Below, piece after piece: positions 5,977 to 33,194 of a stretch of 34,178 nt of DNA. The notes below the pieces were generated by a model. It was not told the origin of the DNA and did not search any database. It saw only the letters and a program-made list of their open reading frames with translations. Source of the DNA: a virus (taxonomy: Duplodnaviria > Heunggongvirae > Uroviricota > Caudoviricetes); IMG/VR virus record IMGVR_UViG_2526164598_000024. One strand, 5' to 3'. Every line of letters begins with the position of its first letter. The stretch's first letter is position 1. The position numbers and the translations under genes were made by a program.

Positions 5977-6921
5977 ATGCCAACAGTAGTTTCACTTTTT
6001 TCTGGATGCGGTGGTTCCGATGCGGGGGTTCTGAGAGCTGGCTTTGATGTGCTTATGGCCAACGATATCTTGCCGTATGCGCGCGATGTTTATATTGCCA
6101 ATCATCCAGAAACTGATTACATTTTAGGCAATATTGCTGATGTAACTACTTTTCCTAAATCTGATTTGCTAGTAGGTTGTTATCCATGTCAGGGATTCAG
6201 CCAGGGTGGTGCGCGTAAGGCCGATCGAAAAATTAATACTCTTTATTTAGAGTTTGCTAGAGCTTTAAACAATATAAAGCCTAAAGCTTTTATAGTAGAA
6301 AACGTGTCTGGTATGGTTAGAAAAAACTTCGAGCATTTGTTATCTGACCAGATCAGGGTTTTTACTGAAGCAGGTTATGCTGTTTCAGCAAAAGTTTTGA
6401 ATGCGGCTGAATATGGAGTAGCGCAGGAAAGAAAAAGAATATTTATCGTAGGAATCCGTAATGATTTCAAAGTTAAGTACGAGTTCCCTCAGCCAACTCA
6501 TGGGCCGGCGACTGGCGTCAACTATGTTACTATTAAAGATGCTATAGGGCATTTACCTGAATGGCCAGAAGGTGAATTTTATGATATGGGGTTCCATTGG
6601 TATTATATGTCTCGCAATCGTCGCCAAGATTGGGATCAAATTTCAAAGACAATAGTTGCTAATGCAAGGCATATGCCGTTGCATCCTATCAGTCCTTCGA
6701 TGGAGAAAGTAAGAACTGATGAATGGAGGTTTGTTGAGGATCGGAGAGCTCGCAGATTCAGTTTTCGAGAGGCAGCACTATTACAAGGGTTTGAGGATCT
6801 AGTGTTTCCCGAAACAAATGCTGCAAGTCTTGGCATGAAATACACGGTGGTTGGTAATGCAGTGCCTCCGCCGCTTTTTGAAGCTGTAACGAAGGCATTG
6901 CCAATAGAATTATGGGATTGA
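5977..6921 (+). CDS. DNA (cytosine-5)-methyltransferase, Dcm family
   Basis: 314 aa; canonical C5-MTase motifs visible: FSGCGG (motif I, AdoMet binding), PCQGFS (motif IV catalytic Cys), IVENVSGM (motif VI), QERKRIFIVG (motif VIII), GNAVPPPL (motif X). Strong Shine-Dalgarno AGGAGG before ATG 5977. AT-rich compared with phage backbone. Confidence 0.9.
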   Translation: MPTVVSLFSGCGGSDAGVLRAGFDVLMANDILPYARDVYIANHPETDYILGNIADVTTFPKSDLLVGCYPCQGFSQGGARKADRKINTLYLEFARALNNIKPKAFIVENVSGMVRKNFEHLLSDQIRVFTEAGYAVSAKVLNAAEYGVAQERKRIFIVGIRNDFKVKYEFPQPTHGPATGVNYVTIKDAIGHLPEWPEGEFYDMGFHWYYMSRNRRQDWDQISKTIVANARHMPLHPISPSMEKVRTDEWRFVEDRRARRFSFREAALLQGFEDLVFPETNAASLGMKYTVVGNAVPPPLFEAVTKALPIELWD

Positions 6922-6928
6922 TAAGCTA

Positions 6929-7921
6929 TTAAGGCTCTGGATTTAATGTATAAAGTTCTTCTTCAAATTCGCGAAACCAATCAGAGGTAGTTATCGCTTC
7001 CCATTGGTTTGCCTTATCAAGTAGATATATGATCCTCAACCTATCTAATAATAATACACCAGCGGTTGCATGTGTGCTTACCCATTCGCCATTTGCTTCC
7101 CGATAGAAAACAGGCGTGAACATTGTTGATGGATGCTGGAAAGCAATTTGGAAATAGGTGGTCAGTTTTAACACGTTAGCCTCTAATGTTTTGCTTGGCC
7201 ACCCTGTTTCTTGTGCACCACATTGACCAAGAATTCCATAGTTGCTAGTTTGACCATCAGGAAATTCCACTGTAGCAATTAGGTCAAACCCAGCATCACC
7301 AGATGTGGGAGCTTTATTTATTTCCCTTGTGTTTAAACTACAAACTCCAAGATCTTTTCCTAAAATTTGTAGAGCATTCCGAAGATTCGTTCCATAATAT
7401 TTTTGCCTATCATCGGAGTTAGCATCAAAAATTCTTACGGTGCCATGTGCAGGTAAGAGAGAAATCATTGCAACTTTACATACTCTGGCAAAGCTCTTTG
7501 CCCAACGTTGTGCTGCTCCTCTAATCGACTTAAAGGATCTAAGTCTAGAGCAACAAAGGAGAAAAACATATATTCTTTGTTGTTGGTTTAGATTTTCTTT
7601 AATAATTATCTCATCACCTGAAATTATAAATGGATATATCTTTCCAAGAGCGCTTTCTCTATATTCGAGTTGTGTCCAAACATCTTCTAGTTGCTCTTCA
7701 AAACGATCATTTCTCTCTGCGTCTCCATCAATTTCTTCTTCAAAATTACATTCTTCATCAATTTCTTCAACACTTGTCATGCCGAATTTTCTTACTGAAT
7801 CTAAATCATTTTTATGCAGAGAGTTACGTCCGATATAATTAATCACCGTGAGTAACTCGGCTAAATCTGCAAACAAATGGGGAGAGTTGGGATGCATAAC
7901 TCCTACTTCAAAAGTCATCAT
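6929..7921 (-). CDS. Hypothetical protein, 330-aa, candidate nuclease/effector partner of the adjacent methyltransferase and ParB-like gene
   Basis: Long uninterrupted minus-strand ORF in AT-rich DNA; ATG at 7921/7918 preceded by GAGGTG; converges on the MTase with only a 7-bp gap between stop codons; overlaps the end of the upstream ParB-like gene by about 14 bp (operon-like). No motif I can assign with confidence. Confidence 0.7.
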   Translation of the reverse strand: MMTFEVGVMHPNSPHLFADLAELLTVINYIGRNSLHKNDLDSVRKFGMTSVEEIDEECNFEEEIDGDAERNDRFEEQLEDVWTQLEYRESALGKIYPFIISGDEIIIKENLNQQQRIYVFLLCCSRLRSFKSIRGAAQRWAKSFARVCKVAMISLLPAHGTVRIFDANSDDRQKYYGTNLRNALQILGKDLGVCSLNTREINKAPTSGDAGFDLIATVEFPDGQTSNYGILGQCGAQETGWPSKTLEANVLKLTTYFQIAFQHPSTMFTPVFYREANGEWVSTHATAGVLLLDRLRIIYLLDKANQWEAITTSDWFREFEEELYTLNPEP

Positions 7922-8350
7922 CACCTCTGCTATTTTTCTCTGCTATTTCAGAACCTATAAGCTTAATATGTTTATTGATTCTTCGTGCTACTTCATGAGC
8001 CTGTCTATCATACTCTACTGTGGCAACCATGCCTGCTGCATCTATCAAAGCCGCTTCAACTTGATAAAGTAACTGGAGAAAGTCCTTAGTAATATCAGAT
8101 GTCAATTGGTAGGCCACTGCGAGTGGAGCCCCCATTCGGAATTGCTCCAATGCCTTAGGGCTACTAACAACAGCAGCTAATTCTCTTAAATTACGTGACT
8201 CTCCAACACGAGTTTTTTTATCCTCACCTTTTTTATATAACCACTCAGTTAGCTCTTTTATTTCTTTGTTCTTTAAGCTATTAGAGTTGATAATAGGATG
8301 ACTTGGTATTGTGTCTCCATCGTCTTCGATTGAAACTCCGACAAATTGGC
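7908..8350 (-). pseudogene. C-terminal fragment of ParB/Srx-domain protein gene split by IS2
   Basis: Reading frame continues exactly from the N-terminal fragment (9682..10365) once IS2 and one TTGGC copy are removed: ...ERLGQ|FVGVSIEDDGDT.... The track ORF 7908..8387 borrows an in-frame GTG start inside the IS2 right end. Confidence 0.8.
8346..8350. repeat. IS2 target-site duplication TTGGC (copy 1)
   Basis: 5-bp direct repeat immediately flanking the IS2 terminus at 8351; identical to 9682..9686. Confidence 0.85.
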
Positions 8351-8361
8351 TGGATTTGCCC

Positions 8362-9267
8362 CTATATTTCCAGACACCTGTTATCACTTAACCCATTACT
8401 GGCCTGCTGCCGCAGATATTCCCGTGGCGAGCGATAACCCAGTGCACTATGCGGATGCCATTCGTTATAATGCTCGAACGCCTCTGCAAGGTTCTTTGCT
8501 GCCGTTAACCCGTCTGGTTTAGGCATGATACTGATGTAGTCACGCTTTATCGTTTTCACGAAGCTCTCTGCTATGCCGTTACTCTCCGGACTCCGCACCG
8601 CCGTGTTCTTCGGTTCAAGCCCCAACATCCGGGCAAACTGCCGTGTTTCATTAGCCCGGTAGCATGAACCATTATCCGTCAGCCACTCTACTGGAGACGC
8701 CGGAAGCTCGTTGCCGAAGCGGCGTTCCACCGCTCCCAGCATTACGTCCTGTACTGTTTCACTGTCGAAGCCGCCCGTAGTGACTGCCCAGTGCAGTGCC
8801 TCACGGTCACAGCAGTCCAGCGCGAACGTGACTCGCAGTTTTTCTCCGTTATCACAGCGGAACTCGAACCCGTCAGAGCACCATCGTTGATTGCTTTCTT
8901 TCACGGCCACTTTGCCAGTATGTGCCCGTTTCGATGGCGGTACAGCGGTTTTTCGCTCAAGCAACAGCGCATTCTGGCGCATGATCCGGTAAACACGTTT
9001 GGCATTGATCGCAGGCATACCATCAAGTTCGGCCTGTCTGCGAAGCAGCGCCCATACCCGACGATAACCATACGTGGGCAGCTCTCCGATAACATGGTGT
9101 ATACGGAGAAGCACATCCGTATCATCTGAGTGACGGCTGCGGCGACCATCTTTCCAGTCATCGGTTCGTCTGAGAATTACGTGCAACTGCGCACGCGACA
9201 CCCGGAGACAACGGCTGACTAAGCTTACTCCCCATCCCCGGGCAATAAGGGCGCGTGCGCTATCCAC
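8362..9267 (-). CDS. insD: IS2 transposase OrfB (InsD), DDE integrase domain
   Basis: 301-aa ORF inside IS2; recognisable IS2 InsD sequence (..[20 protein letters not shown]..); overlaps insC as expected for -1 frameshift fusion. Confidence 0.9.
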
Positions 9268-9590
9268 TTTTTTGCACGCCCGTATTCAACGGCTTCTTTA
9301 AGGAGTTCATTTTCCATCGTTTTTTTGCCGAGCAGGCGCTGGAGTTCTTTAATCTGCTTCATGGCAGCAGCAAGTTCAGAGGCAGGAACGACCTGCTCTC
9401 CTGCGGCCACAGCAGTAAGACTTCCCTCCTGGTATTGCTTGCGCCAGAGAAATAACTGGCTGGCTGCCACACCGTGTTGCCGGGCAACAAGGGAGACCGT
9501 CATTCCCGGTTCAAAACTCTGCTGAACAATAGCGATCTTTTCCTGTGTAGTACGCCGTCTGCGTTTCTCCGGTCCTAAGACATCAATCAT
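9225..9590 (-). CDS. insC: IS2 transposase OrfA (InsC), HTH DNA-binding
   Basis: ATG at 9590 gives 121 aa starting [18 protein letters not shown], recognisable as IS2 InsC; track ORF extends further upstream to an earlier start. Confidence 0.9.
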
Positions 9591-9678
9591 CTGCTCTCCA
9601 ATGACTAGTCTAAAAACTAGTATTAAGACTATCACTTATTTAAGTGATATTGGTTGTCTGGAGATTCAGGGGGCCAGT

Positions 9679-10365
9679 CTATTGGCCTAACCGCTCATCA
9701 GCAAGTGCTGTTGATAATACTGAAAATTTAATCGTTTCTTCATCTAGTTTTTCAATACCATAAAAATCATTTTCTTTAATGATTTCATACACCGCTAAAG
9801 CGTCTAGGTTACGCTTGATATGATCCCTACGACTGCCAATAGCTCTGGCAACCTCATAGTAGCGTAGCATCGGATCCTGATTTGCATTGGTATAATCAAA
9901 AAGCTGTTTAATATATCGAGCTTTTGATAAGGGCTCCCATTGTTTGACACCAGTAATATGTCTGAAACCAAGATACGGAAGAATCTCTTCTCTTGTTTGG
10001 CGCTCAATGACAGGAACACGATCGACTGTATGTTTTGCATTTGATGCAATTTCTCGTAGTCGAGCACTTGGATTTTCACATAGTGTCGGATCGCGTAATA
10101 ATTTAACTGCGGATAGGCGACGGTTTCCTTCAACTACAATGTACTTCCCCGGCGCGACACTGTCAGGAATGACAATCAATGGTTCTCCAGGGAAAAAACC
10201 ATTTTCCGCAATAGCACTCATTAGATCTTCGATAGATGTTGAGGTTGCTATGTAGTTAATCATTCCCAATTGGTCACGAGACACGCCTTCAGGAAGTCTT
10301 GGGTTTTCTGTGTCAAGTTCCAAATCATCTAGCGGAACATAAAGTATTTCTGAATCAGCAATCAT
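9679..10365 (-). pseudogene. N-terminal fragment of ParB/Srx N-domain protein gene, truncated by IS2 (stop codon supplied by IS2 terminus)
   Basis: 228-aa ORF with ATG at 10365 and GGAG Shine-Dalgarno; contains ParB-box-like motif IVVEGNRRLSAVKLL (GxxRxxA arginine patch of ParB/sulfiredoxin fold). The TAG stop at 9679..9681 is the first three bases of IS2 (TAGACTGG...). Confidence 0.8.
9682..9686. repeat. IS2 target-site duplication TTGGC (copy 2)
   Basis: Identical 5-mer to 8346..8350, directly abutting the other IS2 terminus. Confidence 0.85.
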
Positions 10366-10591: not shown

Positions 10592-10610
10592 GGCGAGGCG
10601 GGGAAAGCAC
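10592..10610. other. cos site, 19-nt cohesive end sequence of P2-type phages
   Basis: Sequence GGCGAGGCGGGGAAAGCAC matches the P2 cohesive end as I recall it; located between the cargo island and the portal gene Q, as expected. Confidence 0.7.
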
Positions 10611-22452: not shown

Positions 22453-24474
22453 ATGAGCACAAAATTCAGAACCGTTATCACCACTGCCGGTGCAGCAAAG
22501 CTGGCAGCGGCAACCGCGCCGGGAGGGCGGAAGGTCAACATTACCACGATGGCCGTCGGGGATGGCGGTGGTAAATTGCCTGTCCCGGATGCCGGACAGA
22601 CCGGGCTTATCCACGAAGTCTGGCGACATGCGCTGAACAAAATCAGCCAGGACAAACGAAACAGTAATTATATTATCGCAGAGCTGGTTATTCCGCCGGA
22701 GGTGGGCGGTTTCTGGATGCGTGAGCTTGGCCTGTACGATGATGCGGGAACGTTAATTGCCGTGGCGAACATGGCCGAAAGTTATAAGCCAGCTCTTGCC
22801 GAAGGCTCAGGGCGTTCGCAGACCTGCCGCATGGTCATCATCGTCAGCAGTGTGGCCTCAGTGGAGCTGACCATTGACACCACAACGGTGATGGCGACGC
22901 AGGATTACGTTGATGACAAAATTGCAGAGCACGAACAGTCACGACGTCACCCGGACGCCTCGCTGACCGCAAAAGGTTTTACTCAGTTAAGCAGTGCGAC
23001 CAACAGCATGTCTGAAATGCTTGCCGCAACGCCAAAAGCCGTTAAGACGGTAATGGATGAAACGAACAAGAAAGCGCCATTAAACAGCCCTGTACTGACC
23101 GGAACGCCAACGACGCCAACTGCGCGACAGGGAACGAATAATACTCAGATCGCAAACACGGCTTTCGTTATGGCCGCGATTGCCGCCCTTGTAGACTCGT
23201 CGCCTGACGCACTGAATACGCTGAACGAGCTGGCGGCGGCGCTGGGCAATGACCCGAATTTTGCTACCACCATGACTAATGCGCTTGCGGGTAAGCAACC
23301 GAAAGATGCTACCCTGACGGCGCTGGCGGGGCTTGCTACTGCGGCAGACAGGTTTCCGTATTTTACGGGGAATGATGTTGCCAGCCTGGCAACCCTGACA
23401 AAAGTCGGGCGGGATATTCTGGCTAAATCGACCGTTGCCGCCGTTATCGAATATCTCGGTTTACAGGAAACGGTAAACCGAGCCGGGAACGCCGTGCAAA
23501 AAAATGGCGATACCTTGTCCGGTGGACTTACTTTTGAAAACGACTCAATCCTTGCCTGGATTCGAAATACTGACTGGGCGAAGATTGGATTTAAAAATGA
23601 TGCCGATGGTGACACTGATTCATTCATGTGGTTTGAAACGGGGGATAACGGCAATGAATATTTCAAATGGAGAAGCCGCCAGAGTACTACAACAAAAGAC
23701 CTGATGAATCTTAAATGGGATGCTTTGTATGTTCTTGTCAATGCCATTGTAAATGGCGAAGTCATATCAAAATCAGCAAACGGCCTACGTATTGCTTATG
23801 GTAATTACGGATTCTTTATTCGTAATGATGGTTCAAATACATACTTCATGTTGACAAACTCCGGTGACAACATGGGGACTTATAACGGATTAAGGCCATT
23901 ATGGATTAATAACGCTACTGGCGCTGTTTCGATGGGGCGTGGCCTTAATGTTTCAGGGGAGACGCTTTCAGACCGTTTTGCTATTAACAGCAGTAATGGT
24001 ATGTGGATTCAGATGCGCGATAACAACGCTATCTTTGGGAAAAATATAGTTAACACTGATAGCGCTCAGGCGTTGCTTCGCCAGAATCACGCTGACCGCA
24101 AGTTCATGATAGGTGGACTGGGGAACAAGCAATTTGGCATCTACATGATTAATAACTCAAGGACAGCCAATGGCACCGATGGTCAGGCGTACATGGATAA
24201 TAACGGTAACTGGCTTTGTGGCTCGCAAGTTATTCCCGGCAACTATGGCAATTTTGATTCCAGATATGTGAAAGATGTTCGACTTGGTTCACAGCAATAT
24301 TATGGAGTTAACAACTGGCAAACATGGAATTTCCAGTGCCCGTCAGGTCATGTATTGTCTGGTATTAATGTTCAGGATACAGGGTCCAACTCTGCCGATA
24401 ATATAGCGGGCGTTTATTACAGACCCGTTCAAAAGTATATAAATGGCACCTGGTATAATGTAGCGAGCGTTTAA
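22453..24474 (+). CDS. H: Tail fibre protein H
   Basis: 673 aa; Ala/Thr-rich repeats in the N-terminal half, Asn/Gly-rich C-terminal receptor-binding part; followed by tail-fibre assembly gene. Confidence 0.85.
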
Positions 24475-25218: not shown

Positions 25219-26118
25219 ATGAGTGGTATTCGTATAACTCAGGCTATTGATAACAATCAGATTTTAGTCAATGTAAATACTTTTAATTATAGTGTTAATC
25301 CCTATCCACTCAAATGTCCTGACCCAAATTGCTCTGCTCATTTGGTGTATGTCAAAAGCCATATTCGTCGGAGTTTTAATAAAACCTTGCATATCCCCGC
25401 CTTCTTTAGACTGGAAAAAAATTTCACGCATGACAAATTATGTCAGTATGGAACTTCAGGATTGAATACAATTTATGCAAGTGATTCCAGTCATGATATC
25501 AGCCGTGCGCTTGCCACAGGTAATAATATATTCCGTATACATATACTCGATGAAGATGATATCTCTAAATTAAGCAGAAAAGCTGCAGCTATGCAGGCAA
25601 ATCCACCTTCTGATACTACAGACCGCGTTTATGTCAAGAGAGGTCGGAAAGCCCCCTATGTGAAGAACATGGATAGCTTACGGGAGATCTATGAATATGG
25701 AAAAGCTCACCCCAACAAGAGAAACAGCATAAAAATTGTTACTGGAACAAGTACTGTAACGTGGTCTGATTTTTTCTATGAAACAACGCAGTTAGAACGA
25801 TTGTCAACTTACCTCCAGAAAGTAAAAATAGCTCAGGTTGCTGTAATTATGAAAGTGCATGTGGCGAGAATCCCTATGGCGAAATTTAATTATCGACACT
25901 TCATTGAAGGTTCGCCAATGAGGATAAAAGGGGGCTTTAATATATATCCTACGATTCAATTAGGAAATGTTACTCCAAAATTATTTCCGTTGAGTAGCAT
26001 TGTCATGGTACTCGGTAAATTTACTATTCCAACAAATAGAAAAATGATAATGGATCCAACATTTGAGCGTGAAGTCAGAACCATAGTTTCTAGTGAAGAG
26101 CAAGTGCTAATTCTTTGA
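25219..26118 (+). CDS. Hypothetical protein in the Z/fun cargo locus (candidate phage-exclusion/defence gene)
   Basis: 299-aa ORF with strong GGAGGA Shine-Dalgarno, visibly AT-rich, flanked by long non-coding spacers between G and FI (the P2 Z/fun position). N-terminal Cys/His cluster (CPDPNCSAHLVYVKSH). May be the P2 Z/fun homologue; I cannot confirm from memory. Confidence 0.65.
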   Translation: MSGIRITQAIDNNQILVNVNTFNYSVNPYPLKCPDPNCSAHLVYVKSHIRRSFNKTLHIPAFFRLEKNFTHDKLCQYGTSGLNTIYASDSSHDISRALATGNNIFRIHILDEDDISKLSRKAAAMQANPPSDTTDRVYVKRGRKAPYVKNMDSLREIYEYGKAHPNKRNSIKIVTGTSTVTWSDFFYETTQLERLSTYLQKVKIAQVAVIMKVHVARIPMAKFNYRHFIEGSPMRIKGGFNIYPTIQLGNVTPKLFPLSSIVMVLGKFTIPTNRKMIMDPTFEREVRTIVSSEEQVLIL

Positions 26119-33076: not shown

Positions 33077-33167
33077 ATGGTCGATGTGGACGCTATGTGG
33101 ACAGAGTTTGATATAAATCCATTTATATCATCAGGTTAGGTGCTTTTTTGTGACACCATCCCTGTCT

Positions 33168-33194
33168 TCCCCCACATGATGTGGGGTTTTTTTT
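33168..33194 (+). terminator. Rho-independent terminator-like hairpin with T8 tract
   Basis: CCCCCACAT-GATGTGGGG stem followed by TTTTTTTT; may belong to the host gene upstream of fieF or to the att region. Confidence 0.6.

What the first reader, a model, noticed from the sequence alone, without database searches (positions are those of the whole stretch)
8346..9686. Intact IS2 with perfect 5-bp target-site duplication indicates a recent, simple transposition into the prophage
Both IS2 termini are intact, the element is exactly 1331 bp, and TTGGC is duplicated on both sides. No rearrangement accompanies the insertion. IS2 is transcribed on the same strand as the downstream 331-aa gene, so the insertion may be polar or, alternatively, supply outward transcription.
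Basis: seen in the sequence. Interest (0 to 1): 0.5.

Follow-up and report, generated by a model that had tools for sequence, protein, structure and literature searches.

The report
IS2 knocks out prophage restriction-like gene
An ordinary, intact IS2 insertion sequence has recently jumped into a P2-like prophage and split the first gene of an uncharacterised restriction-modification-like cassette, which gives a natural knockout but is not a new kind of element.

Summary
A complete 1331-bp IS2 lies at 8351-9681 on the minus strand, flanked by a perfect TTGGC duplication (8346-8350 and 9682-9686).

The "recent, simple transposition" reading is strongly supported:
- Removing the IS and one TTGGC gives a sequence 100% identical to E. 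coli TW10590.
- The TW10590 prophage is collinear with the window and differs by only 3 changes in 32.8 kb.
- TW10590 carries an identical IS2 elsewhere in the same prophage, in the tail-fibre gene.
- None of 5,426 complete E. coli genomes has this filled site, and 48 have the empty one.

It cuts a 373-aa ParB/Srx-like protein after codon 228. That gene overlaps, and is very probably co-transcribed with, the 331-aa gene, which has a winged-helix domain and a tentative PD-(D/E)XK nuclease fold. A convergent C5 cytosine methyltransferase stays intact.

The three-gene module sits in the P2 defence hotspot between gpA and the portal gene, and it recurs in other mobile elements in Burkholderia, Pseudomonas and Methylophilaceae.

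A polar loss of function is the likely effect. An IS2-flank hybrid promoter is not supported by the sequence. The IS2 event is ordinary, and the disrupted module is the more interesting object.

The parts
8351..9681 (-). Complete IS2 (IS3 family), 1331 bp. The IRL tip is at 9681 and the IRR tip at 8351.
   Evidence: same length as K-12 IS2A, 95.7% identical, no indels; 100%-identical full-length copies in many E. coli chromosomes and plasmids.
8346..8350 (.). Target-site duplication TTGGC, copy next to IRR
   Evidence: The empty site in TW10590 has a single TTGGC.
9682..9686 (.). Target-site duplication TTGGC, copy next to IRL
9640..9681 (-). IRL (42 bp). The OrfA docking site TAAATAA and the TGAT of the weak extended -10 promoter PIRL lie just inside it.
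   Evidence: sequence compared with the description in PMC3299598. Identical to K-12 IS2A.
8351..8391 (-). IRR (41 bp), with the outward-facing -35-like hexamer TGGAAA at 8372-8367
   Evidence: PMC3299598 and PMC9330008. One substitution relative to K-12 IS2A.
9225..9590 (-). IS2 orfA (InsA/TnpA, 121 aa), identical to the K-12 protein
   Evidence: (NF006928, 276 bits against a cut-off of 229)
8362..9267 (-). IS2 orfB (301 aa; HTH_21, rve and rve_3 domains). It is expressed as OrfAB by -1 frameshifting at the A6G site at window 9273-9267.
   Evidence: (NF006918, 706 bits against a cut-off of 597)
9682..10365 (-). 5' fragment (codons 1-228) of the interrupted ParB/Srx-like gene. Its stop codon TAG (9681-9679) is supplied by the IS2 IRL tip. 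RefSeq names the truncated product WP_244428790.1.
   Evidence: ParB-N/PD-Lambda-5_A N-terminal similarity. ParB/Noc/KorB fold in a 91%-identical homologue.
7908..8350 (-). 3' fragment (codons 227/229-373) of the interrupted gene. The 159-aa ORF 8387->7908 (WP_000627860.1) starts at a GTG inside IRR and reads into this fragment in frame.
6929..7924 (-). 331-aa partner gene (annotated as 329 aa in RefSeq). It overlaps the stop of the interrupted gene. The model shows a winged-helix domain and a restriction-endonuclease-like C-terminal domain. It is probably subject to polarity from the IS.
   Evidence: The overlap with the upstream gene is conserved in L003, L005 and L007.
5977..6921 (+). C5 cytosine DNA methyltransferase, convergent with the 331-aa gene, intact
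   Evidence: (PF00145, 5e-65)
10592..10610 (+). Exact match to the P2 cos 19-mer, between the portal-gene terminator and the interrupted gene. It places the cassette at the right-hand end of the phage map.
   Evidence: The cos sequence itself is recalled from memory. The intact cassette lies at the right end of Yersinia phage HQ103.

Best explanation
An active copy of a common IS2 variant (IS3 family) transposed once into a resident P2-like prophage integrated between cpxP and fieF. IS2 moves by copy-out/paste-in through a minicircle whose abutted ends form the Pjunc promoter. Staggered 5-bp cleavage of the target produced the TTGGC duplication.

The insertion landed after codon 228 of a 373-aa ParB/Srx-like gene. 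That gene is the first in a two-gene operon (ParB-like protein, then a 331-aa winged-helix/nuclease-like protein). The operon faces a convergent C5 cytosine methyltransferase. Together they form a restriction-modification-like module in the P2 defence hotspot between gpA and the portal gene.

Shown:
- The ParB-like protein is truncated to 228 aa and loses its C-terminal ~145-residue helical region.
- The methyltransferase and the rest of the prophage are untouched.

Inferred:
- The downstream 331-aa gene is separated from its promoter by 1.3 kb of IS. The orfB portion of the IS is mostly untranslated, so Rho-dependent polarity should silence or strongly reduce the 331-aa gene.
- The result is an 'R-minus M-plus' genotype. 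That is the safe way to lose a restriction-like system, because keeping the methyltransferase avoids self-killing.
- The prophage probably stays packageable, at 33,302 bp with the IS.
For: Anatomy: the element is a complete IS2 with a 5-bp target duplication. The literature description of IS2 ends, PIRL, the OrfA site, A6G and Pjunc matches the sequence.

Simple insertion: precise excision in silico restores a 373-aa ORF. The restored sequence is 100% identical to TW10590, where the gene is annotated as intact. The whole window is collinear with the TW10590 prophage, with only 3 differences.

Recency:
- 0 of 5,426 complete genomes have the filled site and 48 have the empty one.
- TW10590 has a 100%-identical IS2 in the same orientation in its tail-fibre gene (TSD GGGGA). 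The window lacks that copy, so each insertion arose after the two lineages split.
- 100%-identical IS2 copies lie at many unrelated loci.

Not an assembly artefact: the exact truncated product, whose stop comes from the IS tip, is on a 127-kb contig of GCA_000250355.2. It is also on two read-set contigs that break 28-29 nt inside the IS.

The module:
- The MTase matches PF00145.
- The ParB-like protein matches PD-Lambda-5_A and ParB models over its N-terminus, keeps an invariant EGNRR box, and has a ParB/Noc/KorB fold.
- The same three-gene arrangement, with overlapping genes, occurs in Burkholderia, Pseudomonas and Methylophilaceae mobile elements.
- The location is P2 hotspot #1.

Packaging size.
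Against: - No expression data exist, so polarity on the 331-aa gene is inferred.
- Promoter-like sites lie in native sequence between the IS and the 331-aa gene (8319-8290 and 8007-7978, minus strand). They could keep that gene expressed.
- No intrinsic terminator was found inside IS2 on this strand, so read-through is possible.
- Neither the defence function nor the restriction function of the module has been tested. The 331-aa protein matches no PADLOC or Pfam model.
- The other IS2 copies of the source genome itself could not be examined. Only a sister strain and other genomes were.
Confidence: 0.85

Rival explanations
1. The insertion is adaptive activation. IS2 supplies outward transcription, through an IRR -35 hybrid promoter or read-through from the transposase promoter, that drives the 331-aa gene independently of the ParB-like gene.
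For: IS2 IRR carries an outward -35 that forms Pjunc and has created fusion promoters at ampC, acrEF and neoR (PMC9330008; PMC3299598). The IS is in the right orientation, with IRR facing the 331-aa gene. A 159-aa ORF starts in IRR and runs in frame into the 3' gene fragment that overlaps the 331-aa start.
Against: At the spacer IS2 requires (17 nt) the flank offers CCAATT, 2 of 6, without the key A2. The best pairing at any spacer is 7 of 12, and the scan reports no junction promoter. PIRL is weak and repressed by OrfA. The 331-aa start lies 427 nt from the IS tip.
Confidence: 0.08
2. The IS2 at this site is an assembly artefact of a draft genome, that is, a repeat placed into the wrong gap.
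For: The only long record with the filled site is a draft assembly (GCA_000250355.2). No complete genome has it.
Against: Both junctions lie inside one 127-kb contig and have a perfect 5-bp duplication, which misassembly would not create. Two separate read-set assemblies (SRR096911, SRR13614867) end 28-29 nt inside the IS with the same flank. The in-frame restoration of the ORF after removing exactly IS plus 5 bp fits real transposition.
Confidence: 0.03
3. The insertion is old and was inherited or acquired with the prophage, not a recent event in this lineage.
For: Whether the jump occurred in this host or in a previous host of the prophage cannot be determined from the window. The same truncated product appears in at least two sequencing projects.
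Against: The nearly identical TW10590 prophage (3 differences in 32.8 kb) lacks it. 48 other carriers of the cassette lack it. The IS is 100% identical to copies elsewhere.
Confidence: 0.04

Closest known systems
IS2 (IS3 family, IS2 group), reference copy IS2A of E. coli K-12 MG1655
   Same: 1331 bp. Imperfect 42/41-bp terminal repeats with identical tips. orfA and orfB with an A6G -1 frameshift site at the same position. 5-bp target duplication. OrfA is identical.
   Different: 57 substitutions (95.7% identity), 11 of them changing OrfB and one in IRR. This is a common non-K-12 variant: 1,285 records have a copy at 99% identity or more.
IS2 insertion in the tail-fibre gene of the sister prophage in E. 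coli TW10590 (NZ_CP035850.1)
   Same: 100%-identical IS2, in the same orientation relative to the prophage, with a perfect 5-bp duplication, in a prophage that differs by 3 changes in 32.8 kb.
   Different: The target is gpH (TSD GGGGA), which probably disables virion production. The R-M-like cassette there is intact, the reverse of the window.
PD-lambda-5 (Vassallo et al. 2022), a compact prophage 'RM+Abi' defence system
   Same: The N-terminal ~190 residues of the interrupted protein match PD-Lambda-5_A models (best E 1.6e-28). Both involve a methyltransferase function, and both occur in E. coli prophages.
   Different: Only the ParB-N part of the 440-500-position profiles is matched. The 331-aa partner matches no PD-Lambda-5_B or other PADLOC model. 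Here the methyltransferase is a separate C5 enzyme on the opposite strand.
Classical Type II restriction-modification cassettes with convergent R and M genes, and their frequent inactivation by IS insertion in R
   Same: A C5 MTase is convergent with a putative nuclease operon. The module is mobile and found in several MGE types. In the knockout, the modification gene is retained.
   Different: The restriction side has two proteins, one a ParB/Noc/KorB-like NTP-binding DNA-binding protein. This is not a feature of characterised Type II enzymes, and no activity has been shown.
tin and old of phage P2, and other cargo of the P2 hotspot between gpA and the portal gene
   Same: Same genomic slot, next to cos, in a P2-like prophage.
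   Different: Unrelated proteins. This cargo is not among the systems discussed in the papers read here: no mention of ParB or methyltransferase in Rousset et al. 2022.

Membership tests
IS2 (IS3 family) | Length about 1331 bp with imperfect terminal inverted repeats of 42 bp (IRL, tip TA) and 41 bp (IRR, tip CA) | tested here: met
   1331 bp. IRL is identical to K-12 IS2A and IRR has 1 substitution. Feature definitions come from PMC3299598.
IS2 (IS3 family) | Two overlapping ORFs (orfA, orfB) with an A6G -1 programmed frameshift window that gives the OrfAB transposase | tested here: met
   A6G at IS position 409 in both this copy and K-12. Both ORFs are open and full length.
IS2 (IS3 family) | Transposase with HTH and DDE (rve) integrase core domains, and matches to the IS2-specific protein models | tested here: met
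   (HTH_Tnp_1, HTH_21, rve, rve_3). (NF006918, 706.5 bits against 597; NF006928, 276.4 bits against 229).
IS2 (IS3 family) | 5-bp direct target-site duplication | tested here: met
   (TTGGC on both sides). The empty site has a single copy. The second copy in TW10590 also has a 5-bp TSD.
IS2 (IS3 family) | Transposition competence (circle formation and insertion) | not testable with these tools
   Indirect only: 100%-identical copies sit at many different loci, and there are two different sites in sister prophages.
P2-like prophage defence hotspot #1 cargo | Located between the replication endonuclease gene (gpA) and the portal gene (gpQ), next to cos | tested here: met
   annotation of the identical TW10590 locus; definition in PMC9519451; cos 19-mer at 10592.
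P2-like prophage defence hotspot #1 cargo | Confers protection against phage infection | not testable with these tools
PD-lambda-5 defence system | Both components (A and B) present and matched over most of their length | tested here: not met
   component A models match only residues ~9-192 of the 373-aa protein (profile positions ~7-196 of 440). The 331-aa protein has 0 PADLOC matches at E <= 1.
ParB/Srx superfamily (ParB-N NTP-binding fold) | ParB-N fold with the conserved GxRRxxA arginine box | tested here: met
   E79-G80-N81-R82-R83 is invariant and A86 nearly invariant across 46 homologues. TIGR00180 matches locally at 5e-08 but below its cut-off. Several homologues carry PF02195. Foldseek hits to ParB, Noc and KorB have E of 1e-6 and probability 1.0, on the model of a 91%-identical homologue.
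ParB/Srx superfamily (ParB-N NTP-binding fold) | CTP (or other NTP) binding/hydrolysis, or nuclease activity | not testable with these tools
   Biochemistry is required.
Type II-like restriction-modification system | DNA methyltransferase with all motifs, adjacent to the effector genes | tested here: met
   PF00145, residues 3-308 on profile positions 2-322 of 324; TIGR00675, 191.7 bits against 100.65. The convergent arrangement is conserved in three other genera.
Type II-like restriction-modification system | A restriction endonuclease with an identifiable catalytic fold or motif | tested here: inconclusive

The most novel reading that the evidence does not exclude
The disrupted cassette (a ParB/Noc/KorB-like NTP-binding DNA-binding protein, an overlapping winged-helix/PD-(D/E)XK-like protein and a convergent C5 methyltransferase) may be an uncharacterised class of restriction-modification or defence system. 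In that reading a ParB-type NTP-dependent DNA clamp recruits or licenses a nuclease. The IS2 allele in this strain and the intact allele in TW10590 would then be a near-isogenic natural knockout/wild-type pair for testing it.
Probability: 0.4. Interest if true: 0.6.

Novelty: already known. Interest (0 to 1): 0.22.

Why it matters
IS2 insertions with 5-bp duplications are textbook events, so the finding as stated adds little.

Its practical value lies in annotation and strain biology. The 228-aa and 159-aa RefSeq proteins (WP_244428790.1, WP_000627860.1) are two halves of one IS-split gene. This strain should be scored as lacking the effector side of a prophage R-M-like module while still methylating its DNA.

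The comparison with TW10590 shows how quickly IS2 is remodelling one prophage. There are two independent hits within a divergence of 3 mutations: one disables cargo, the other the tail fibre.

The disrupted module is conserved at about 60% identity across Gamma- and Betaproteobacteria, has no assigned function, and occupies a known defence hotspot. It is a reasonable candidate for experimental characterisation.

Tried and rejected
1. Filled site in complete E. coli genomes and in GenBank phages: none found. The site turned up only through an exact-protein look-up of the IS-truncated product.
2. IRR-flank hybrid promoter: scored explicitly and rejected.
3. Filing the cassette under PD-lambda-5: rejected. 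Only the ParB-N part of component A matches and the partner does not match.
4. Sequence searches for the 331-aa protein against Pfam, NCBIfam, PADLOC and PDB gave nothing. PHROGs gave only families of unknown function.
5. Literature searches for this cassette (ParB-like protein with methyltransferase in anti-phage or prophage contexts; Rousset et al. 2022) found no description.
6. Searching papers for the source accession (AIHH...) found nothing; only TW10590 is mentioned, as an ETEC isolate.
9. The PHROG families of 227 and 75 positions, which cover only the N- and C-terminal parts, are explained by split or frameshifted alleles in database genomes, not by separate genes.
Full report

Yes. 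Reading 8200-9850 and checking positions by script shows a 1331-bp element at 8351-9681. TTGGC lies directly on both sides, at 8346-8350 and 9682-9686.

In the transposase orientation (the minus strand of the window) the element begins TAGACTGGCCCCCTGAATCTCCAGAC... and ends ...GTCTGGAAATATAGGGGCAAATCCA.

It carries a 121-aa orfA (9590->9225) and a 301-aa orfB (9267->8362) that overlap. The A6G slippery site is at window 9273.
- Pfam finds HTH_Tnp_1 in OrfA, and HTH_21, rve and rve_3 in OrfB.
- The IS2-specific NCBIfam models match end to end, above their cut-offs: NF006928 at 276 bits against 229, and NF006918 at 706 bits against 597.

Compared with the annotated IS2A of K-12 MG1655, the copy has the same length and no indels, and is 95.7% identical.
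- The first 87 nt are identical. They include all of IRL, the OrfA docking site TAAATAA and the TGAT of the PIRL extended -10.
- IRR has one substitution.
- OrfA is identical and OrfB has 11 substitutions.
- A6G is at IS position 409 in both.

These features are the ones described for IS2 in PMC3299598. The termini are therefore intact and the element looks functional.

**2. Is it a simple, recent transposition?**

The evidence is strong.

*Simple.* Deleting the IS and one TTGGC in silico fuses the flanks into one continuous 373-codon ORF. The resulting 1165-bp sequence is 100% identical to the chromosome of E. coli TW10590 and 99.9% identical to an ATCC 8739 record. 48 of 5,426 complete E. 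coli genomes carry the uninterrupted site. A query spanning the filled site found no complete genome and no GenBank phage that covers it.

Aligning the whole window to TW10590 shows collinearity from the integrase gene to fieF. There are just 2 SNPs and one 1-nt indel in 32,842 bp, so no rearrangement accompanies the insertion.

*Recent.* TW10590 carries a 100%-identical IS2 in the same orientation at another place in the same prophage. That copy is inside the tail-fibre gene gpH, at the position equivalent to window 23642-23646, with TSD GGGGA. The gene is intact in the window (673 aa, tail-fibre Pfam domains).

IS2 transposes by copy-out/paste-in through a minicircle (PMC3299598), so the donor copy stays in place. 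The two prophage copies are therefore independent insertions, each made after the two lineages separated. That separation is marked by only three mutations in the prophage.

Full-length copies 100% identical to this one also lie in many unrelated chromosomal and plasmid contexts. The variant is evidently active.

**3. Is it an assembly artefact?**

No. The truncated upstream ORF ends in a TAG supplied by the IS2 tip (...GGC CAA|TAG), so its exact 228-aa product is a fingerprint of this insertion. An exact-sequence look-up finds it in three places:
- on a 127-kb contig of the draft assembly GCA_000250355.2 (AIHH01000059.1), which is 100% identical to the window over the 8.7 kb retrieved and is therefore the source or its equivalent;
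- on a contig assembled from SRR096911;
- on a contig assembled from SRR13614867.

The last two contigs break 28-29 nt inside the IS, as short-read assemblies do at repeats.

**4.

The interrupted ORF (10365->7908 without the IS) is annotated 'ParB N-terminal domain-containing protein' (WP_000559726.1) in TW10590.

The interrupted protein:
- Its first ~190 residues match PADLOC PD-Lambda-5_A models (best E 1.6e-28). They also match ParB models locally (TIGR00180, 5e-08, below the cut-off).
- An EGNRR box (residues 79-83) is invariant across 46 homologues, and A86 is nearly invariant.
- An AlphaFold model of a 91%-identical homologue (pLDDT 87.6) matches the ParB, Noc and KorB NTP-binding plus DNA-binding domains (Foldseek E about 1e-6).
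- The IS cuts the protein after codon 228 and removes a C-terminal helical region of about 145 residues.

The downstream gene:
- The gene's stop overlaps the start of the 331-aa gene (7924->6929; 329 aa in RefSeq).
- That family is conserved at 50-60% identity across Gamma- and Betaproteobacteria but is annotated nowhere.
- These scores are modest, so I treat 'nuclease' as tentative.

The methyltransferase: convergent with this gene, 7 bp away, is an intact C5 cytosine methyltransferase (5977-6921; PF00145, 5e-65).

Conservation of the arrangement: a ~372-aa protein, an overlapping ~330-aa protein and a convergent C5 MTase also occur next to integrases in unrelated elements. These are in Burkholderia vietnamiensis, Pseudomonas nitroreducens and a Methylophilaceae genome, the last with an extra HNH gene. 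The intact cassette also occurs in the viable P2-like Yersinia phage HQ103.

Location in the prophage: the cassette lies between the replication endonuclease gene and the portal gene, next to an exact match to the P2 cos 19-mer at 10592. Vassallo et al. call this slot P2 defence hotspot #1 (PMC9519451).

I therefore read the module as a mobile R-M-like unit. The methyltransferase protects, and the ParB-like/nuclease-like pair is the effector. This is an inference from architecture and folds, not a demonstrated function. It is not a member of PD-lambda-5: only the ParB-N part of component A matches and the partner does not.

**5. Consequence of the insertion.**

Shown:
- The ParB-like gene is split. 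RefSeq names the two halves WP_244428790.1 (228 aa) and WP_000627860.1. The latter is a 159-aa ORF that starts at a GTG in IRR and reads in frame into the 3' fragment.
- The methyltransferase is untouched.

Inferred: the 331-aa gene now lies behind 1.3 kb of IS. The orfB part of the IS is translated only after rare frameshifting, which favours Rho-dependent termination. Established knowledge is that IS2 insertions in operons are strongly polar. Loss of the overlap-coupled upstream translation should add to this effect.

The alternative of outward transcription was tested on the sequence.
- The IRR hexamer that forms the -35 of Pjunc, by the 17-nt spacing rule of PMC3299598, is TGGAAA (8372-8367).
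- It is followed at 16, 17 and 18 nt by GCCAAT, CCAATT and CAATTT, which score 3, 2 and 2 of 6. The best total is 7 of 12.
- The generic scan finds no junction promoter.

Weak promoter-like sites in native DNA at 8319-8290 and 8007-7978 could still give some partner expression. Polarity therefore remains a prediction.

The outcome, effector side broken and methylase kept, is the genotype expected when an R-M-like system is lost without self-killing. A second, independent loss of the same gene exists: a 206-aa frameshift allele on 8 contigs.

The prophage is 31,966 bp without the IS and 33,302 bp with it. That is about the size of P2 itself (from my own knowledge), so packaging should still be possible.

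**6. Comparison with what is known, and verdict.**

The element is a bona fide IS2. All sequence-testable defining features are met, and the event is a textbook one. Novelty is 'already known'.

Its interpretation is partly supported: recent and simple, yes; it overlooked the gene disruption; the promoter alternative is unsupported.

The more interesting object is the disrupted three-gene module. It is conserved, mobile, located in a defence hotspot and uncharacterised. The source strain and TW10590 form a near-isogenic natural pair for it.

Interest in the finding as given is low (0.22). The most novel reading not excluded is that the module is a new ParB-clamp-dependent restriction system, at a probability of about 0.4.

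Noticed in passing
L002 15231-16561 (NZ_CP035850.1 1087230-1088560); equivalent to window 23642-23646: The sister prophage in E. coli TW10590 carries a 100%-identical IS2, in the same orientation, inside the tail-fibre gene gpH (TSD GGGGA). This is a second independent IS2 hit in a prophage that differs from the window by only 3 mutations.
   Followed up: yes
window 5977-10365 (without the IS); L003 4896-7961, L005 4896-7982, L007 4884-8876: The ParB-like (~372 aa), overlapping ~330-aa and convergent C5-methyltransferase module is conserved at about 50-60% protein identity in Burkholderia, Pseudomonas and Methylophilaceae. It sits there next to integrases in unrelated mobile elements. The Methylophilaceae version has an extra HNH_2 gene between the 328-aa gene and the methyltransferase.
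   Followed up: partly
protein P0125 (WP_244428397.1), allele of window 10365-7908: A 206-aa frameshift variant of the same ParB-like gene (it ends ...EIIKKMIFMVLKS) is present on 8 contigs of other E. coli. It occurs together with a 75-aa C-terminal ORF (WP_000501202.1, 15 contigs). The gene has therefore been inactivated independently by another route.
   Followed up: partly
window 7908-8387 (minus strand): A 159-aa ORF (RefSeq WP_000627860.1) starts at a GTG inside the IS2 right inverted repeat. It reads in frame into the last 145 codons of the interrupted gene. This chimeric ORF could in principle express the C-terminal domain and keep translational coupling to the 331-aa gene.
   Followed up: no
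window 25219-26118 (plus strand): A 299-aa ORF lies between the tail-fibre assembly gene and the tail sheath gene, the slot of the second P2 defence hotspot (the Z/fun position). It has no Pfam or PADLOC match and is annotated as hypothetical in TW10590.
   Followed up: partly
window 10592-10610 and 33152-33186: An exact P2 cos 19-mer (GGCGAGGCGGGGAAAGCAC) lies between the portal gene terminator and the cassette. A 35-bp att core (CCCCACATCATGTGGGGGAAGACAGGGATGGTGTC, reverse strand in the window) marks the ogr-side prophage end next to fieF. The int-side copy lies just outside the window, towards cpxP.
   Followed up: partly
window 2840, 17115, 33186: These are the only three differences between the window and the TW10590 prophage apart from the IS2 positions: G/A, C/T and a 1-nt indel.
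   Followed up: no
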